A stretch of 64,000 bases of DNA from Escherichia coli (GTDB lineage: Bacteria; Pseudomonadota; Gammaproteobacteria; Enterobacterales; Enterobacteriaceae): NCBI RefSeq assembly GCF_013122565.1, contig NZ_CP053258.1; one strand, written 5' to 3'. The first letter of the stretch is position 1, and each line of letters begins with the position of its first letter. The position numbers and the translations under genes were made by a program. A model generated the notes under the pieces. That model made no database searches. It was not told the DNA's origin and was given only the letters and a program-made list of their open reading frames with translations. Shown here one piece after another: positions 13,592 to 60,104 of the stretch.

Positions 13592-13624
13592 AGTGTTGCC
13601 TTTTTGTTATCAATAAAAAAGGCC

Positions 13625-13652
13625 CCCCGATTTGGGAGGCCTTATTGTTCGT
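13625..13652 (-). terminator. pheA attenuator terminator
   Basis: On minus strand AAGGCCTCCC-AAATC-GGGGGGCC followed by TTTTTT, between pheL stop (13690) and pheA start (13591). Confidence 0.65.
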
Positions 13653-13689
13653 CTTCGCATTCTGTTTCACACGACGAAACGCCTCCCAT

Positions 13690-13737
13690 TCAGGGGAAGG
13701 TAAAAAAGAATGCGAAGAAAAACGGTGTGTGTTTCAT
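13690..13737 (-). CDS. pheL: pheA operon leader peptide (15 aa, 7 Phe codons)
   Basis: Minus-strand ATG AAA CAC ACA CCG TTT TTC TTC GCA TTC TTT TTT ACC TTC CCC TGA = [15 protein letters not shown]. Below the ORF-track size cutoff. Confidence 0.8.
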   Translation of the reverse strand: [15 protein letters not shown]

Positions 13738-13790
13738 GTTTGTTTCCTTAAGTGACTTTAGTACAGTACCCGTACTGTTTTCACGCTGTC

Positions 13791-17033: not shown

Positions 17034-17095
17034 CCTAAAGAATCAAGACGATCCGGTACGCGTGATTTTCTTTTCACATTAATCTGGTCAATAAC

Positions 17096-17124
17096 CTTGA
17101 ATAATTGAGGGATGACCTCATTTA
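17096..17124 (+). promoter_or_regulatory. sigma32 heat-shock promoter of clpB
   Basis: CTTGAAT (17096-17102) and CCTCATTTA (17116-17124), 13-bp spacer, about 40 bp upstream of clpB ATG. Confidence 0.5.
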
Positions 17125-17162
17125 ATCTCCAGTAGCAACTTTGATCCGTTATGGGAGGAGTT

Positions 17163-19736
17163 ATGCGTCTGGATCGTCTTACTAATAAATTCCAGCTTGC
17201 TCTTGCCGATGCCCAATCACTTGCACTCGGGCACGACAACCAATTCATCGAACCACTTCATTTAATGAGCGCCCTGCTGAATCAGGAAGGGGGTTCGGTT
17301 AGTCCTTTGTTAACATCCGCTGGCATTAATGCTGGCCAGTTGCGCACAGATATCAATCAGGCATTAAATCGTTTACCGCAGGTTGAAGGTACTGGTGGTG
17401 ATGTCCAGCCATCACAAGATCTGGTGCGCGTTCTTAATCTTTGCGACAAGCTGGCGCAAAAACGTGGTGATAACTTTATCTCGTCAGAACTGTTCGTTCT
17501 GGCGGCACTTGAGTCTCGCGGCACGCTGGCCGACATCCTGAAAGCAGCAGGGGCGACCACCGCCAACATTACTCAAGCGATTGAACAAATGCGTGGAGGT
17601 GAAAGCGTGAACGATCAAGGTGCTGAAGACCAACGTCAGGCTTTGAAAAAATATACCATCGACCTTACCGAACGAGCCGAACAAGGCAAACTCGATCCGG
17701 TGATTGGTCGTGATGAAGAAATTCGCCGTACCATTCAGGTGCTGCAACGTCGTACTAAAAATAACCCGGTACTGATTGGTGAACCCGGCGTCGGTAAAAC
17801 TGCCATCGTTGAAGGTCTGGCGCAGCGTATTATCAACGGCGAAGTGCCGGAAGGGTTGAAAGGCCGCCGGGTACTGGCGCTGGATATGGGCGCGCTGGTG
17901 GCTGGGGCGAAATATCGCGGTGAGTTTGAAGAACGTTTAAAAGGCGTGCTTAACGATCTTGCCAAACAGGAAGGCAACGTCATCCTGTTTATCGACGAAT
18001 TACATACCATGGTCGGCGCGGGTAAAGCCGATGGCGCAATGGACGCCGGAAACATGCTGAAACCGGCGCTGGCGCGTGGTGAATTGCACTGCGTAGGTGC
18101 CACGACGCTTGACGAATATCGCCAGTACATCGAAAAAGATGCTGCGCTGGAACGTCGTTTCCAGAAAGTGTTTGTTGCCGAGCCTTCTGTTGAAGATACC
18201 ATTGCGATTCTGCGTGGCCTGAAAGAACGTTACGAATTGCACCACCATGTGCAAATTACTGACCCGGCAATTGTTGCAGCGGCGACGTTGTCTCATCGCT
18301 ACATTGCTGACCGTCAGCTGCCGGATAAAGCCATCGACCTGATCGATGAAGCAGCATCCAGCATTCGTATGCAGATTGACTCAAAACCAGAAGAACTCGA
18401 CCGACTCGATCGTCGTATCATCCAGCTCAAACTGGAACAACAGGCGTTAATGAAAGAGTCTGATGAAGCCAGTAAAAAACGCCTGGATATGCTCAACGAA
18501 GAACTGAGCGACAAAGAACGTCAGTACTCCGAGTTAGAAGAAGAGTGGAAAGCAGAGAAGGCATCGCTTTCTGGTACGCAGACCATTAAAGCGGAACTGG
18601 AACAGGCGAAAATCGCTATTGAACAGGCTCGCCGTGTGGGTGACCTGGCGCGGATGTCTGAACTGCAATACGGCAAAATCCCGGAACTGGAAAAGCAACT
18701 GGAAGCCGCAACGCAGCTCGAAGGCAAAACTATGCGTCTGTTGCGTAATAAAGTGACCGACGCCGAAATTGCTGAAGTGCTGGCGCGTTGGACGGGGATT
18801 CCGGTTTCTCGCATGATGGAAAGCGAGCGCGAAAAACTGCTGCGTATGGAGCAAGAACTGCACCATCGCGTAATTGGTCAGAACGAAGCGGTTGATGCGG
18901 TATCTAACGCTATTCGTCGTAGCCGTGCGGGGCTGGCGGATCCAAATCGCCCGATTGGTTCATTCCTGTTCCTCGGCCCAACTGGTGTGGGGAAAACAGA
19001 GCTTTGTAAGGCGCTGGCGAACTTTATGTTTGATAGCGACGAGGCGATGGTCCGTATCGATATGTCCGAGTTTATGGAGAAACACTCGGTGTCTCGTCTG
19101 GTTGGTGCGCCTCCGGGATATGTCGGTTATGAAGAAGGTGGCTACCTGACCGAAGCTGTGCGTCGTCGTCCGTATTCCGTCATCCTGCTGGATGAAGTGG
19201 AAAAAGCGCATCCGGATGTCTTCAATATTCTGTTGCAGGTACTGGATGATGGGCGTCTGACTGACGGGCAGGGGAGAACGGTCGACTTCCGTAATACGGT
19301 TGTCATTATGACCTCTAACCTCGGTTCCGATCTGATTCAGGAACGCTTCGGTGAACTGGATTATGCGCACATGAAAGAGCTGGTGCTCGGTGTGGTTAGC
19401 CATAACTTCCGTCCGGAATTCATTAACCGTATCGATGAAGTGGTGGTCTTCCATCCGCTGGGTGAACAGCACATTGCGTCGATTGCGCAGATTCAATTGA
19501 AACGTCTGTATAAACGTCTGGAAGAACGTGGTTATGAAATCCACATTTCTGACGAGGCGCTGAAACTGCTGAGCGAGAACGGTTACGATCCGGTCTATGG
19601 TGCACGTCCTCTGAAACGTGCAATTCAGCAGCAGATCGAAAACCCGCTGGCACAGCAAATACTGTCTGGTGAATTGGTTCCGGGTAAAGTGATTCGCCTG
19701 GAAGTTAATGAAGACCGGATTGTCGCCGTCCAGTAA
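17163..19736 (+). CDS. clpB: AAA+ disaggregase chaperone ClpB
   Basis: ORF track 17151..19736; ATG at 17163 after GGGAGGAG gives [19 protein letters not shown]..., 857 aa; two Walker A sites ([16 protein letters not shown]). Confidence 0.96.
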
Positions 19737-20179: not shown

Positions 20180-21721
<1,542 letters not shown>

Positions 21722-21806: not shown

Positions 21807-21882
21807 GTCCCCTTCGTCTAGAGGCCCAGGACACCGCCCTTTCACGGCGGTAACAGGGGTTCGAATCCCCTAGGGGACGCCA
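21807..21882 (+). tRNA. gltW: tRNA-Glu (anticodon UUC) in the 16S-23S spacer
   Basis: GTCCCCTTCGTCTAGAGGCCCAGGACACCGCCCTTTCACGGCGGTAACAGGGGTTCGAATCCCCTAGGGGACGCCA, 76 nt ending CCA. Confidence 0.95.
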
Positions 21883-22066: not shown

Positions 22067-24970
<2,904 letters not shown>

Positions 24971-25063: not shown

Positions 25064-25183
25064 TGCCTGGCGGCCTTAGCGCGGTGGTCCCACCTGACCC
25101 CATGCCGAACTCAGAAGTGAAACGCCGTAGCGCCGATGGTAGTGTGGGGTCTCCCCATGCGAGAGTAGGGAACTGCCAGGCAT
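25064..25183 (+). rRNA. rrfG: 5S ribosomal RNA
   Basis: TGCCTGGCGGCCTTAGCGCGGTGGTCCCACCTGACCCCATGCCGAACTCAG...GGGAACTGCCAGGCAT, 120 nt. Confidence 0.96.
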
Positions 25184-36871: not shown

Positions 36872-36971
36872 TGCCGGATGCGGCGTGAACGCCTTATCCG
36901 GCCTACAAGATCGTGCAAATTCAATATATTGCATGAGCCACGTAGGCCTGATAAGCGTAGCGCATCAGGCA
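36872..36971. repeat. BIME: two inverted REP palindromic units
   Basis: TGCCGGATGCGGCGTGAACGCCTTATCCGGCCTACA and inverted GTAGGCCTGATAAGCGTAGCGCATCAGGCA. Confidence 0.7.
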
Positions 36972-42499: not shown

Positions 42500-43455
42500 T
42501 GAAGCAACTTTGGTTTGCCATGTCATTAGTGACAGGTAGCCTGTTATTCTCTGCTAACGCCTCGGCCACTCCCGCGTCCGGGGCGTTATTACAGCAGATG
42601 AACCTGGCCAGTCAGTCACTGAATTACGAGCTGTCATTCATCAGCATCAATAAACAGGGTGTTGAGTCTCTGCGTTATCGACATGCACGCCTCGATAACC
42701 GTCCTCTTGCACAATTGTTGCAAATGGATGGCCCGCGCCGGGAAGTGGTACAGCGCGGCAATGAAATCAGCTATTTTGAACCGGGACTTGAACCGTTCAC
42801 GCTTAATGGCGATTACATTGTTGATTCTCTGCCATCGCTCATCTATACCGATTTCAAACGCCTTTCTCCTTACTACGACTTTATCTCCGTCGGGCGCACG
42901 CGTATTGCTGATCGTCTTTGCGAAGTTATTCGCGTGGTTGCCCGAGATGGTACACGCTACAGCTACATCGTGTGGATGGACACCGAATCGAAATTACCGA
43001 TGAGGGTTGATCTCCTTGATCGCGATGGTGAAACGCTGGAACAATTTCGCGTGATTGCTTTTAATGTCAATCAGGATATCAGCAGCAGTATGCAGACGCT
43101 GGCGAAGGCAAATTTGCCGCCGTTGCTTTCTGTTCCTGTAGGTGAAAAAGCTAAATTCAGCTGGACGCCAACCTGGTTGCCACAGGGTTTTAGCGAAGTT
43201 TCCAGTAGTCGACGTCCGCTACCGACGATGGACAACATGCCTATCGAATCACGTCTCTATTCCGACGGATTATTCAGCTTCTCGGTAAACGTTAACCGCG
43301 CTACGCCATCGAGCACCGATCAGATGTTGCGCACCGGACGCAGAACCGTCAGTACAAGCGTACGTGATAACGCCGAAATCACCATTGTCGGTGAACTGCC
43401 GCCGCAAACGGCGAAACGCATTGCCGAGAATATTAAGTTCGGGGCAGCGCAATGA
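42499..43455 (+). CDS. rseB: sigma-E regulatory protein RseB
   Basis: 318-aa ORF with signal peptide MKQLWFAMSLVTGSLLFSANASA; start overlaps rseA stop. Confidence 0.95.
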   Translation: MKQLWFAMSLVTGSLLFSANASATPASGALLQQMNLASQSLNYELSFISINKQGVESLRYRHARLDNRPLAQLLQMDGPRREVVQRGNEISYFEPGLEPFTLNGDYIVDSLPSLIYTDFKRLSPYYDFISVGRTRIADRLCEVIRVVARDGTRYSYIVWMDTESKLPMRVDLLDRDGETLEQFRVIAFNVNQDISSSMQTLAKANLPPLLSVPVGEKAKFSWTPTWLPQGFSEVSSSRRPLPTMDNMPIESRLYSDGLFSFSVNVNRATPSSTDQMLRTGRRTVSTSVRDNAEITIVGELPPQTAKRIAENIKFGAAQ

Positions 43456-43931
43456 TCAAAGAGTGGGCTACCGTCGTCTCCTGGCAAAACGGGCAGGCGC
43501 TGGTCAGTTGTGATGTTAAAGCCTCATGCAGCAGCTGCGCTTCACGCGCCGGTTGCGGTAGCCGCGTGTTGAATAAACTTGGCCCGCAAACCACGCATAC
43601 CATTGTCGTACCCTGTGATGAGCCGTTAGTGCCGGGGCAAAAAGTGGAATTGGGGATCGCCGAAGGCAGCCTGCTTAGCTCCGCATTACTGGTTTATATG
43701 TCGCCGCTGGTGGGATTATTCCTCATCGCTTCGCTATTTCAGCTACTCTTTGCTTCTGACGTCGCAGCATTATGTGGTGCTGTCCTCGGCGGTATTAGCG
43801 GGTTCCTGATTGCGCGTGGCTACTCGCGTAAGTTTGCTGCCCGGGCAGAATGGCAACCGATCATCTTAAGCGTGGCATTGCCGCCTGGCCTTGTGCGATT
43901 TGAAACATCTTCGGAAGACGCGAGCCAGTGA
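43452..43931 (+). CDS. rseC: sigma-E regulatory protein RseC
   Basis: 159-aa ORF MIKEWATVVSWQNGQALVSCDVKASCSSC...; overlaps rseB stop. Confidence 0.93.
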   Translation: MIKEWATVVSWQNGQALVSCDVKASCSSCASRAGCGSRVLNKLGPQTTHTIVVPCDEPLVPGQKVELGIAEGSLLSSALLVYMSPLVGLFLIASLFQLLFASDVAALCGAVLGGISGFLIARGYSRKFAARAEWQPIILSVALPPGLVRFETSSEDASQ

Positions 43932-44128
43932 TTTCACTGGCTTTGTTGCATTTTGCATAACAAATGCGAGGACGTTTCCAGATACCACAATCCATACGGT
44001 ATGAACATTTCCTCGCCTCAATGTTGTAGTGTAGAATGCGGCGTTTCTATTAATACAGACGTTAAGCTCAGAACAGCGACTTCTAAAAGCCTGGTTAACC
44101 GGGCATTAAGGCACAATAATCATACTTT

Positions 44129-45928
<1,800 letters not shown>

Positions 45929-45943: not shown

Positions 45944-46918
45944 ATGGCGAATATGTTTGCCCTGATTCTGGTGATTGCCACACTGGTGACGGGCATTTTA
46001 TGGTGCGTGGATAAATTCTTTTTCGCACCTAAACGGCGGGAACGTCAGGCAGCGGCGCAGGCGGCTGCCGGGGACTCACTGGATAAAGCAACGTTGAAAA
46101 AGGTTGCGCCGAAGCCTGGCTGGCTGGAAACCGGTGCTTCTGTATTTCCGGTGCTGGCTATCGTATTGATTGTGCGTTCGTTTATTTATGAACCGTTCCA
46201 GATCCCGTCAGGTTCGATGATGCCGACTCTGTTAATCGGTGATTTTATTCTGGTAGAGAAGTTTGCTTATGGCATTAAAGATCCTATCTACCAGAAAACG
46301 CTGATCGAAACCGGTCATCCTAAACGCGGCGATATCGTGGTCTTTAAATATCCGGAAGATCCAAAGCTTGATTACATCAAGCGCGCGGTTGGTTTACCAG
46401 GCGATAAAGTCACTTATGATCCGGTCTCAAAAGAGCTGACGATTCAACCGGGATGCAGTTCCGGCCAGGCATGTGAAAACGCGCTGCCGGTCACCTACTC
46501 AAACGTGGAACCGAGCGATTTCGTTCAGACCTTCTCACGCCGTAATGGTGGGGAAGCGACCAGCGGATTCTTTGAAGTGCCGAAAAACGAAACCAAAGAA
46601 AATGGAATTCGTCTTTCCGAGCGTAAAGAGACACTGGGTGATGTGACGCACCGAATTCTGACAGTGCCGATTGCGCAGGACCAGGTGGGGATGTATTACC
46701 AGCAGCCAGGGCAACAACTGGCAACCTGGATTGTTCCGCCGGGACAATACTTCATGATGGGCGACAACCGCGACAACAGCGCGGACAGCCGTTACTGGGG
46801 CTTTGTGCCGGAAGCGAATCTGGTCGGTCGGGCAACGGCTATCTGGATGAGCTTCGATAAGCAAGAAGGCGAATGGCCGACTGGTCTGCGCTTAAGTCGC
46901 ATTGGCGGCATCCATTAA
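45944..46918 (+). CDS. lepB: signal peptidase I
   Basis: 324-aa ORF MANMFALILVIATLVTGILWCVDKFFFAPK... with catalytic SGSMMPTL motif. Confidence 0.96.
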   Translation: MANMFALILVIATLVTGILWCVDKFFFAPKRRERQAAAQAAAGDSLDKATLKKVAPKPGWLETGASVFPVLAIVLIVRSFIYEPFQIPSGSMMPTLLIGDFILVEKFAYGIKDPIYQKTLIETGHPKRGDIVVFKYPEDPKLDYIKRAVGLPGDKVTYDPVSKELTIQPGCSSGQACENALPVTYSNVEPSDFVQTFSRRNGGEATSGFFEVPKNETKENGIRLSERKETLGDVTHRILTVPIAQDQVGMYYQQPGQQLATWIVPPGQYFMMGDNRDNSADSRYWGFVPEANLVGRATAIWMSFDKQEGEWPTGLRLSRIGGIH

Positions 46919-46930
46919 TAGCCATCTTCG

Positions 46931-46970
46931 TTCACGTTGTCGCCGTTATGGCGACAACGTGAATTATTTA
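46931..46970 (+). terminator. perfect 14-bp hairpin after lepB (probable lepA-lepB terminator)
   Basis: TTCACGTTGTCGCC-GTTAT-GGCGACAACGTGAA followed by TTATTTA. Confidence 0.5.
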
Positions 46971-47062
46971 TGAGATAAATCTCCCGTGGCTAACGACATC
47001 CCCCGTCGTTGTGTATAGAATATTCCCCCGAAGTTTAAGGTTGGCACCTCCAGGTTGCCACG

Positions 47063-47156
47063 GCACACGAAACAGCGTTGGTCCCCATATACCGGTAAAC
47101 TGAAACTGCAGCGAAGCAGTTAGCAGAACCATGTATATCAGGTCTGTTTCGTGTGC
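47063..47156 (+). promoter_or_regulatory. rnc 5' leader stem-loop (candidate RNase III autoregulatory processing site)
   Basis: GCACACGAAACAG (47063-47075) pairs with CTGTTTCGTGTGC (47144-47156), a 13-bp long-range stem enclosing about 68 nt, just upstream of rnc ATG at 47190. Confidence 0.5.
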
Positions 47157-47159
47157 TGA

Positions 47160-48772
<1,613 letters not shown>

Positions 48773-50635: not shown

Positions 50636-50654
50636 AAAAATACCGTTCTCTTTA

Positions 50655-50730
50655 TAAAGTAAAACCCCCGAACTGGTAAGGAACGGGGGTTTTACTTTAT
50701 TTTGTGCAGCACGCACCCTCAATGAGGATA
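50655..50730 (-). ncRNA. ohsC: candidate OhsC antitoxin sRNA (antisense regulator of shoB); boundaries approximate
   Basis: Minus-strand RNA from about 50725 to the terminator at 50661-50693 would carry the complement of 50704-50725, which is a near-copy of 50951-50972 in the shoB 5' UTR (19/22 identical; two differences become G-U pairs). Candidate -10 CATAAT (plus 50731-50736) and -35 TTGTAA (plus 50755-50760) on minus strand. Confidence 0.45.
50661..50699. terminator. bidirectional rho-independent terminator (acpS operon on plus strand; likely also ohsC on minus strand)
   Basis: AAAACCCCCG-13-nt loop-CGGGGGTTTT, flanked by T-runs on both strands. Confidence 0.6.
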
Positions 50731-59920: not shown

Positions 59921-60104
59921 AGTGGCTCATTCACCGACTTATGTCAGCCCCTTCGGGACGTGCTACATAAAATTCGAATGACGCACAACAAGGTGCCTGC
60001 CGTCCAACTTCTGATATCAGCGTAGCTATATCAACCATCGGGCGAAACGTCGAGTTAGGCACCGCCTTATTCCATAACAAAGCCGGGTAATTCCCGGCTT
60101 TGTT
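59921..60104 (+). ncRNA. glmY: small RNA GlmY
   Basis: Predicted start about 12 nt after sigma54 -12 GC; ends at strong terminator ACAAAGCCGGG-TAATT-CCCGGCTTTGT (60077-60103) followed by TGTATCT; about 184 nt. 5' and 3' ends approximate. Confidence 0.7.

What the first reader, a model, noticed from the sequence alone, without database searches (positions are those of the whole stretch)
47063..47156. Long-range stem in the rnc leader consistent with RNase III autoregulation
GCACACGAAACAG and its exact complement CTGTTTCGTGTGC are 68 nt apart, immediately upstream of the rnc start codon. rnc expression in E. coli is known to be autoregulated by RNase III cleavage of a leader stem-loop. Together with the perfect 14-bp hairpin after lepB (46931-46963), this explains the 271-bp lepB-rnc gap without needing a gene.
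Basis: partly seen in the sequence, partly recalled or inferred. Interest (0 to 1): 0.3.

Follow-up and report, generated by a model that had tools for sequence, protein, structure and literature searches.

The report
Known RNase III autoregulatory leader (rncO)
The inverted repeat is the base of the long hairpin in the E. coli rnc mRNA leader (rncO) that RNase III cuts to limit its own synthesis, a textbook, already catalogued element, so the finding is correct but ordinary.

Summary
GCACACGAAACAG (47063-47075) and its exact complement (47144-47156) lie 68 nt apart in the 271-bp lepB-rnc gap. A perfect 14-nt hairpin lies at 46931-46963. Rfam family RF00552 (rncO) matches 47030-47244 end to end at 258.8 bits against a gathering score of 43. 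The region is 100% identical to E. coli K-12 MG1655, the strain in which RNase III cleavage of this leader hairpin and the resulting mRNA decay were demonstrated. The arms pair with probability 0.97 or higher in every transcript context folded. They pair in all 78 other Enterobacteriaceae leaders examined, and two of the 13 pairs show compensatory changes. The gap is fully accounted for: lepB terminator, sigma-70 promoter, transcription start at about 47030, and a 160-nt 5' UTR. The one modest addition is comparative. The conserved unit is a roughly 47-nt hairpin. The roughly 50-nt apical extension seen in E. coli occurs in only about a third of the leaders sampled. I could not read the mapped cleavage positions because the primary papers are not held. 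Novelty: already known. Interest: low.

The parts
46930..46974 (+). Intrinsic-terminator-like hairpin after lepB. The stem spans 46930-46964, with a perfect 14-bp core at 46931-46963, followed by the tail TATTTATGAG.
   Evidence: 16 pairs, 8 of them G-C, and a 3-nt loop. It is the only terminator-like site in 46800-47300; a hairpin at the same place in 76 of 79 related loci, with many compensatory stem changes and a conserved AAUUAUUU tail.
46993..47021 (+). rnc promoter (sigma-70 type): -35 ACGACA at 46993-46998, a 17-bp spacer, and -10 TAGAAT at 47016-47021.
   Evidence: 9 of 12 consensus matches. CTAACGACA...GTATAGAAT is conserved across the Enterobacteriaceae leaders. [quoted passage not shown]
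47030..47030 (+). Inferred transcription start (+1) of the rnc-era-recO mRNA.
   Evidence: This is an inference. The Rfam rncO model starts here. PMC10037077 gives the rnc 5' UTR as nucleotides 1-160, and 47190-160 = 47030. The position is 8 nt after the -10 hexamer.
47030..47244 (+). rncO, the post-transcriptional 'operator' of the rnc operon (Rfam RF00552).
   Evidence: 258.8 bits against gathering score 43, E = 8e-62, model positions 1-214 of 214. One search returns the same hit at the gathering threshold in a scan of the whole window.
47042..47060 (+). rncO stem-loop I (7 pairs).
   Evidence: 5 of its 7 pairs show compensatory changes across 72 distinct leaders.
47061..47158 (+). rncO stem-loop II, the 98-nt irregular hairpin that is the RNase III substrate.
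   Evidence: Nucleotides 1-129 of the UTR (47030-47158, which is stems I plus II exactly) are used as a cleavable RNase III substrate in PMC10037077.
47063..47075 (+). It lies in the base helix of stem-loop II.
   Evidence: GCACACGAAA is invariant in 72 distinct Enterobacteriaceae leaders.
47144..47156 (+).
   Evidence: Pair probabilities are 0.97-1.00.
47083..47136 (+). Apical extension of stem-loop II. It is lineage-specific and variable in length.
   Evidence: It is absent from 53 of 79 leaders, where stem-loop II totals 47-52 nt. It is present but divergent in sequence in Escherichia, Citrobacter, Salmonella, Phytobacter and a Raoultella-like group, where stem-loop II totals 88-122 nt.
47159..47189 (+). 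Conserved A/U-rich single-stranded linker between stem II and the AUG. It holds the weak ribosome-binding site and is a likely RNase E entry region after cleavage (inferred).
   Evidence: unpaired or weakly paired; nearly invariant; length fixed at 31-32 nt in all 79 leaders. The RNase E role is inferred from the mechanism described in PMC3867540.
47190..47870 (+). rnc coding sequence (RNase III, 226 aa).
   Evidence: annotated as rnc in E. coli genomes.
47210..47229 (+). rncO stem-loop III (8 pairs), inside the first codons of rnc.
   Evidence: 95.7% of cells are paired, with no compensatory change; the sequence is also constrained by coding.

Best explanation
The two arms form the foot of stem-loop II of rncO, the 5' leader of the rnc-era-recO mRNA. 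Transcription starts at about 47030 from a sigma-70 promoter just downstream of the lepB terminator. The first 129 nt fold into a small hairpin (I) and a 98-nt irregular hairpin (II). While intact, these 5' structures protect the mRNA. RNase III recognises hairpin II as double-stranded RNA and cuts within it. The cut removes the protective 5' structure and leaves a monophosphorylated, unstructured 5' end. RNase E then attacks, and the whole operon message decays. When RNase III is titrated by abundant substrates such as rRNA precursors, less leader is cut and more enzyme is made, which gives negative feedback. Shown here: the sequence, the fold, the family match, conservation and identity to K-12. 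Taken from the literature: cleavage, destabilisation and the RNase E step. Inferred: the exact transcription start and RNase E entry in the A/U-rich linker.
For: The Rfam RF00552 match covers the full model at 258.8 bits against gathering score 43, and recurs at the gathering threshold in the whole-window scan. The minimum-free-energy fold pairs the arms, with z = -3.2 against shuffles. Pair probabilities are 0.97 or higher in five contexts, including read-through from lepB. The region is identical to MG1655 over 46900-47260 and present in 5425 of 5426 complete E. coli genomes. The arms pair in the minimum-free-energy fold of all 79 Enterobacteriaceae leaders even though the loop between them varies from about 17 to 92 nt. 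Compensatory changes occur at A47074-U47145 (C-G in 37 distinct leaders, A-U in 28). They also occur at A47070-U47149, which is C-G in Photorhabdus, Xenorhabdus and Proteus. All 20 Enterobacteriaceae loci scanned and all 8 more distant Enterobacterales loci reach the rncO gathering score. Literature: RNase III cleaves a hairpin in its own 5' UTR, creating a 5'-monophosphate end recognised by RNase E (PMC3867540; PMC5371410; PMC10582724). The UTR is 160 nt, and nt 1-129 are cleaved by RNase III in vivo by primer extension (PMC10037077). The known rnc sites were re-detected by 5'-P sequencing (PMC6212723).
Against: Nothing found contradicts it. There are three limits. The primary papers (Bardwell 1989; Matsunaga 1996) and the supplementary table with mapped sites are not held, so I could not place the cleavage positions on the sequence. 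Some lineages carry A.C, A.G or G.G mismatches in the helix.
Confidence: 0.95

Rival explanations
1. The helix is only a 5' stabiliser hairpin that blocks 5'-end-dependent decay, and it is not itself the site where RNase III acts.
For: A stable structure near a 5' end is a generic mRNA stabiliser, and the literature model itself gives the intact leader this role. I could not read the mapped cleavage coordinates.
Against: Held papers state that RNase III cleaves the hairpin in this UTR. A fragment ending exactly at the foot of stem II (nt 1-129) is cleaved by RNase III in vivo. The conserved core is about 21 helical positions long (15 bp, a 2x2 loop, then 4 bp), which is the size of a minimal RNase III substrate (the size comparison is from my own knowledge).
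Confidence: 0.03
2. The inverted repeat works at the DNA level, as a palindromic operator for a dimeric transcription factor that controls rnc.
For: Both arms are almost invariant in sequence across genera, which is more than base pairing alone demands.
Against: The distance between the arms varies from about 17 to 92 nt among species while the arms stay fixed. That is incompatible with a fixed protein-DNA geometry. The repeat lies 33-126 nt downstream of the inferred start, not over the promoter. Two positions change on both arms together so that pairing is kept. [quoted passage not shown]
Confidence: 0.01
3. Stem II is a transcription attenuator or terminator, or it masks the ribosome-binding site to control translation.
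For: It is a strong G+C-containing hairpin within a leader, upstream of a weak ribosome-binding site.
Against: No run of U follows the 3' arm (UGAAUUGUUGAC), and the terminator scan finds only the lepB hairpin in 46800-47300. The helix ends 31 nt before the AUG and does not include the ribosome-binding site. The title of Matsunaga et al. 1997, cited in PMC5371410, states that autoregulation is independent of rnc translation.
Confidence: 0.01
4. The repeat is a chance match.
For: Thirteen nucleotides is short, and a few such repeats occur in any genome.
Against: The expected number is 0.12 per 64 kb. The repeat is conserved in 79 of 79 Enterobacteriaceae leaders and has a full-length Rfam match.
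Confidence: 0

Closest known systems
rncO (Rfam RF00552); Bardwell et al. 1989, Matsunaga et al. 1996
   Same: It is this element. It has the same locus (the rnc 5' UTR), the same three stem-loops and a sequence identical to the K-12 leader that was studied.
   Different: There is no difference in E. coli. Comparatively, the Rfam consensus carries the long apical domain, but 53 of the 79 Enterobacteriaceae leaders sampled here have a 47-52-nt stem-loop II without it. In the middle of the helix, the conserved UUGG/UCAG pairing differs in register from the Rfam consensus pairs C47084-G47142 and C47085-G47141.
rpsO-pnp intercistronic hairpin (PNPase autoregulation)
   Same: RNase III cleavage of a leader hairpin starts rapid decay of the downstream message.
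   Different: There the autoregulator is PNPase and RNase III is a helper. Here the enzyme that cuts is the product of the regulated gene.
rne 5' UTR (RNase E autoregulation)
   Same: A ribonuclease senses its own activity through the decay of its own mRNA, directed by the 5' UTR.
   Different: The nuclease is RNase E, which cuts single-stranded RNA. The UTR hairpins act as sensors rather than as double-stranded cleavage substrates (from my own knowledge).
Phage T7 R1.1-type RNase III processing signals
   Same: Both are irregular hairpins of about two helical turns with an internal loop. The conserved 47-nt core here has 15 bp, a 2x2 loop and 4 bp.
   Different: T7 signals are processing sites whose products are stable. 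Here cleavage destabilises the mRNA (from my own knowledge).

Membership tests
rncO (RF00552) | Sequence and secondary structure match the curated covariance model above its gathering score. | tested here: met
   258.8 bits against 43, E = 8e-62, model positions 1-214 of 214, not truncated. The hit is reproduced at the gathering threshold.
rncO (RF00552) | It lies in the 5' untranslated leader of rnc, downstream of the rnc promoter and running into the first codons. | tested here: met
   The match spans 47030-47244 and the rnc ATG is at 47190. A promoter-like site lies at 46993-47021. The published UTR length of 160 nt puts +1 at 47030.
rncO (RF00552) | It has three stem-loops, with II a long irregular hairpin. 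| tested here: met
   The model's structure maps to I 47042-47060, II 47061-47158 and III 47210-47229. The thermodynamic fold agrees for I and II. Covariation supports I strongly and II at 2 of 15 base pairs. It gives no support for III, which lies in coding sequence.
rncO (RF00552) | RNase III cleaves within stem-loop II. | not testable with these tools
   This is an experimental property. The sequence is identical to MG1655, for which held papers report cleavage. I could not read the exact positions.
rncO (RF00552) | Cleavage lowers rnc-era mRNA stability and RNase III synthesis (negative feedback). | not testable with these tools
   This rests on the literature only.
Intrinsic (rho-independent) terminator: the hairpin after lepB | A G+C-rich stem-loop followed directly by a U-rich tract, at the end of a gene. 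| tested here: met
   16 pairs (8 G-C), a 3-nt loop and a tail with 5 T in 8, lying 12 nt after the lepB stop. The structure is kept with compensatory changes in 76 of 79 loci. The U tract is interrupted (UAUUUAU), so termination efficiency is unknown and was not tested.

The most novel reading that the evidence does not exclude
The evolutionarily conserved RNase III-responsive module is only the roughly 47-nt core hairpin: a 15-bp base, a CG/GU internal loop and a UUGG/UCAG helix. The roughly 50-nt apical domain studied in E. coli and Salmonella would then be a lineage-specific add-on. Eleven of the 15 base pairs and the internal-loop nucleotides are invariant across about 70 species, while neighbouring stem I covaries freely. 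This points to a sequence-specific constraint beyond pairing. The constraint could be precise positioning or single-strand restriction of the RNase III cut, or binding of a second factor.
Probability: 0.25. Interest if true: 0.3.

Novelty: already known. Interest (0 to 1): 0.08.

Why it matters
It matters little as a discovery. rncO has been known since 1989-1996, is a curated Rfam family, and is used today as a standard RNase III reporter substrate. The result is useful as a calibration point, because a reader working from raw sequence alone found and correctly interpreted a real regulatory RNA. RefSeq annotates nothing in this 271-bp gap in MG1655. The comparative by-product, a short conserved core with a variable apex, could guide the minimal design of RNase III-responsive leaders. 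It also raises the question of whether autoregulation works the same way in genera that have only the short hairpin.

Tried and rejected
I tried to read the primary papers (PMC1369450, PMC401487), the Court et al. review (PMC6311387) and Hauk et al. 2023. None is held. The supplementary table of PMC6212723 that lists the mapped rnc sites is not held either. The cleavage positions therefore remain unplaced. A full-text search for 'rncO' returned mostly chemistry papers about isocyanates.

The minus-strand Rfam hit at 47061-47158 scores 23.9 bits, below the gathering score. I rejected it as an echo of the near-palindromic helix. The mir-2001 hit on the lepB hairpin (20.1 bits against 74) is noise.

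I considered small ORFs in the gap: 30 aa on the plus strand, and 34, 45 and 92 aa on the minus strand. None has a Pfam match at E of 1 or below. Gap length varies from 170 to 295 bp, and stem-loop II length differs between species by amounts that are mostly not multiples of three. I rejected coding on these grounds.

I considered a second promoter at TTGACG 47164-47169. No -10 hexamer lies at a usable spacing, and the scan did not report one.

The best-80 cap of the genome scan returned only close relatives (96-100% protein identity). I therefore fetched eight more distant Enterobacterales loci by protein look-up.

Full report
**Observation**

The window around the finding is the E. coli lepA-lepB-rnc-era-recO cluster, all on the plus strand. 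lepB ends at 46918 and rnc starts at 47190, which leaves a 271-bp gap.
- Arms 47063-47075 (GCACACGAAACAG) and 47144-47156 (CTGTTTCGTGTGC) are 13 nt, 100% complementary and 68 nt apart.
- Arms 46931-46944 and 46950-46963 are 14 nt, 100% complementary, with a 5-nt loop.

Such repeats are rare. In the whole 64-kb window only three distinct perfect inverted repeats of 13 nt or more with a loop of 120 nt or less exist, and two of them are in this gap. Simulated sequence with the same dinucleotide make-up gives a mean of 0.12 per window.

**Identity**

A scan of 46600-47500 against Rfam gives a full-length match of family RF00552, rncO, at 47030-47244 on the plus strand. The score is 258.8 bits against a gathering score of 43, with E = 8e-62 and model positions 1-214 of 214. 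The same hit appears in a gathering-threshold scan of the whole window.

Mapping the model's structure onto the sequence gives:

| Element | Window coordinates |
|---|---|
| Stem-loop I | 47042-47060 |
| Stem-loop II | 47061-47158 |
| Stem-loop III | 47210-47229, inside the first codons of rnc |

C47061-G47158 and G47062-U47157 extend the helix by two pairs.

The stretch 46900-47260 is 100% identical to E. coli K-12 MG1655 and is present in 5425 of 5426 complete E. coli genomes. RefSeq annotates no feature in the gap.

**Structure**

Folding 47040-47200 as RNA pairs the arms exactly as proposed: -52.5 kcal/mol, z = -3.2 against dinucleotide shuffles. Partition-function folding was run in five contexts: the UTR alone, the UTR plus 60 or 210 nt of coding sequence, the whole gap, and read-through from lepB. 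In each, every one of the 13 pairs has a probability of 0.97-1.00.

**Comparative evidence**

I fetched 80 rnc loci from other Enterobacteriaceae species and aligned 78 leaders, counting the window.
- All 20 loci scanned against Rfam hit rncO at 149-231 bits.
- In all 79 leaders (78 loci plus the window) the arms pair in the minimum-free-energy fold.
- The foot of the helix lies a constant 31-32 nt from the ATG.
- The base helix is almost frozen in sequence. Eleven of 15 pairs never vary.
- A47074-U47145 alternates with C-G: C-G in 37 distinct leaders, A-U in 28.
- Stem I covaries freely, with 5 of 7 pairs showing compensatory changes.

I then fetched eight more distant Enterobacterales loci.
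- Photorhabdus, Xenorhabdus, Proteus and Symbiopectobacterium keep stem II.
- In the first three genera there is a second compensatory change, A47070-U47149 to C-G, and a conserved A.G mismatch at the C47066-G47153 position.
- Limnobaculum and Serratia microhaemolytica have no recognisable stem II.

RNAalifold on 15 short-form hairpins predicts the 15-bp base plus a 4-bp UUGG/UCAG helix. Five of its 19 pairs show compensatory change.

**Why the repeat acts as RNA**

The distance between the two arms varies from about 17 to 92 nt among species while the arms themselves stay fixed. This rules out a fixed-geometry DNA operator and fits an RNA helix. No U tract follows the 3' arm, and the terminator scan finds only the lepB hairpin, so the helix is not an attenuator. 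The helix ends 31 nt before the AUG and does not cover the ribosome-binding site.

**What fills the gap**

- A hairpin begins 12 nt after the lepB stop at 46930-46964. It has 16 pairs and is followed by TATTTATGAG. It is the only terminator-like site in the region.
- A hairpin occupies the same place in 76 of 79 related loci, with many compensatory stem changes and a conserved AAUUAUUU tail.
- A sigma-70-like promoter follows, with -35 ACGACA at 46993 and -10 TAGAAT ending at 47021. It is conserved across genera.
- The Rfam model begins at 47030. PMC10037077 gives the rnc 5' UTR as nucleotides 1-160, which also puts +1 at 47030.
- The four small ORFs in the gap have no Pfam match. Gap length varies from 170 to 295 bp, with indels that do not preserve reading frame.

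**Mechanism (from the literature, not tested here)**

- RNase III cleaves an irregular hairpin in its own 5' UTR. This creates an unstructured 5'-monophosphate end that RNase E recognises, and the mRNA decays rapidly (PMC3867540).
- The feedback works because abundant substrates such as rRNA titrate the scarce enzyme (PMC5371410).
- era is co-regulated with rnc (PMC10582724).
- Nucleotides 1-129 of the UTR, which are exactly stems I plus II (47030-47158), are cleaved by RNase III in vivo as measured by primer extension (PMC10037077).
- A 5'-P sequencing study states that it detected the known rnc sites (PMC6212723).

The primary papers and that study's supplementary table are not held. I therefore could not place the cleavage positions on the sequence, and that step remains unverified here. 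My recollection of Matsunaga et al. 1996 is that cleavage lies within stem II and that the intact 5' structures act as a stabiliser. This is memory, not a tool result.

**The one thing beyond the known**

Stem-loop II varies in length between lineages:

| Stem-loop II length | Leaders | Genera |
|---|---|---|
| 47-52 nt | 53 of 79 | Enterobacter, Kluyvera, Kosakonia, Pluralibacter, Trabulsiella, Atlantibacter, Klebsiella oxytoca and others |
| 88-104 nt | remainder, apart from one 64-nt form (Citrobacter youngae) | Escherichia, Citrobacter, Salmonella, Phytobacter |
| 120-122 nt | 5 | a Raoultella-like group |

The conserved unit is thus a roughly 47-nt hairpin: 15 bp, a 2x2 internal loop (CG opposite GU) and 4 bp. 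That is about two helical turns, the size of a minimal RNase III substrate (the size comparison is my own knowledge). The E. coli apex is a lineage-specific extension. Whether the short form supports autoregulation, and why the base helix is frozen in sequence rather than merely in pairing, are small open questions.

**Verdict**

The element is the already known rncO stem-loop II. Interest is low.

Noticed in passing
window 47083-47136; loci L001-L080 (about 1390-1470 in locus coordinates): The apical part of rncO stem-loop II is a length-variable insert. Stem-loop II totals 47-52 nt in 53 of 79 Enterobacteriaceae leaders. It totals 88-104 nt in Escherichia, Citrobacter, Salmonella and Phytobacter, and 120-122 nt in a Raoultella-like group (L046, L052, L070, L071, L073). 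The Rfam consensus reflects the long form.
   Followed up: yes
window 47076-47082 with 47137-47143: The conserved UUGG/UCAG helix above a CG/GU 2x2 internal loop is supported by all short-form leaders and by RNAalifold. It differs in register from the Rfam consensus pairs C47084-G47142 and C47085-G47141.
   Followed up: partly
window 46930-46974; first 70 nt after the lepB stop in L001-L080: The lepB terminator hairpin is kept by structure with abundant compensatory changes and a conserved AAUUAUUU tail. L041 (Entomohabitans) and L079 (Franconibacter) have gaps of 170-171 bp and lack the hairpin. L018's lepB end was not resolved by my script.
   Followed up: partly
proteins P0004 (311 aa) and P0008 (297 aa): Public protein records of RNase III carry N-terminal extensions that translate the rncO leader. 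For example, '...HTKPRWFFQVGFVC...' spells both arms of stem II. These are probably wrong start-codon calls in species whose short leader happens to be open in frame. P0001 (282 aa) has an internal duplication and P0010 a frameshifted C-terminus.
   Followed up: partly
L083 (Limnobaculum, Budviciaceae) and L088 (Serratia microhaemolytica), about 820-900: These rnc leaders reach the rncO gathering score only through stem I, the linker and stem III. Stem-loop II is absent or unrecognisable. In L083 the gene after rnc is a 186-aa ORF with no Pfam hit rather than era.
   Followed up: partly
L069 (CACSKA010000009.1): The record is titled Chryseobacterium sp. 18061. It nonetheless carries an rnc locus 97% identical in protein to E. 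coli, with a typical enterobacterial rncO leader. The assembly is probably contaminated or mislabelled.
   Followed up: no
window 46992-47010: A short inverted repeat, AACGAC/GTCGTT, lies within the spacer of the rnc promoter. It is only partly conserved in other genera.
   Followed up: no
window 50654-50700: A perfect 17-nt inverted repeat (ATAAAGTAAAACCCCCG / CGGGGGTTTTACTTTAT) coincides with the Rfam ohsC_RNA hit at 50656-50720 on the minus strand. This is the known OhsC/ShoB antitoxin sRNA region.
   Followed up: no
window, whole: The Rfam gathering scan found other known RNA features. They are an rRNA operon (16S 20180-21721, tRNA 21807-21879, 23S 22067-24970, 5S 25066-25181) and the Phe leader (13613-13738, minus strand). 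The rest are RyfD (17044-17182), ES036 (36907-36949), AsrC antisense of rseC (43416-44247, minus strand) and GlmY (59921-60068).
   Followed up: no
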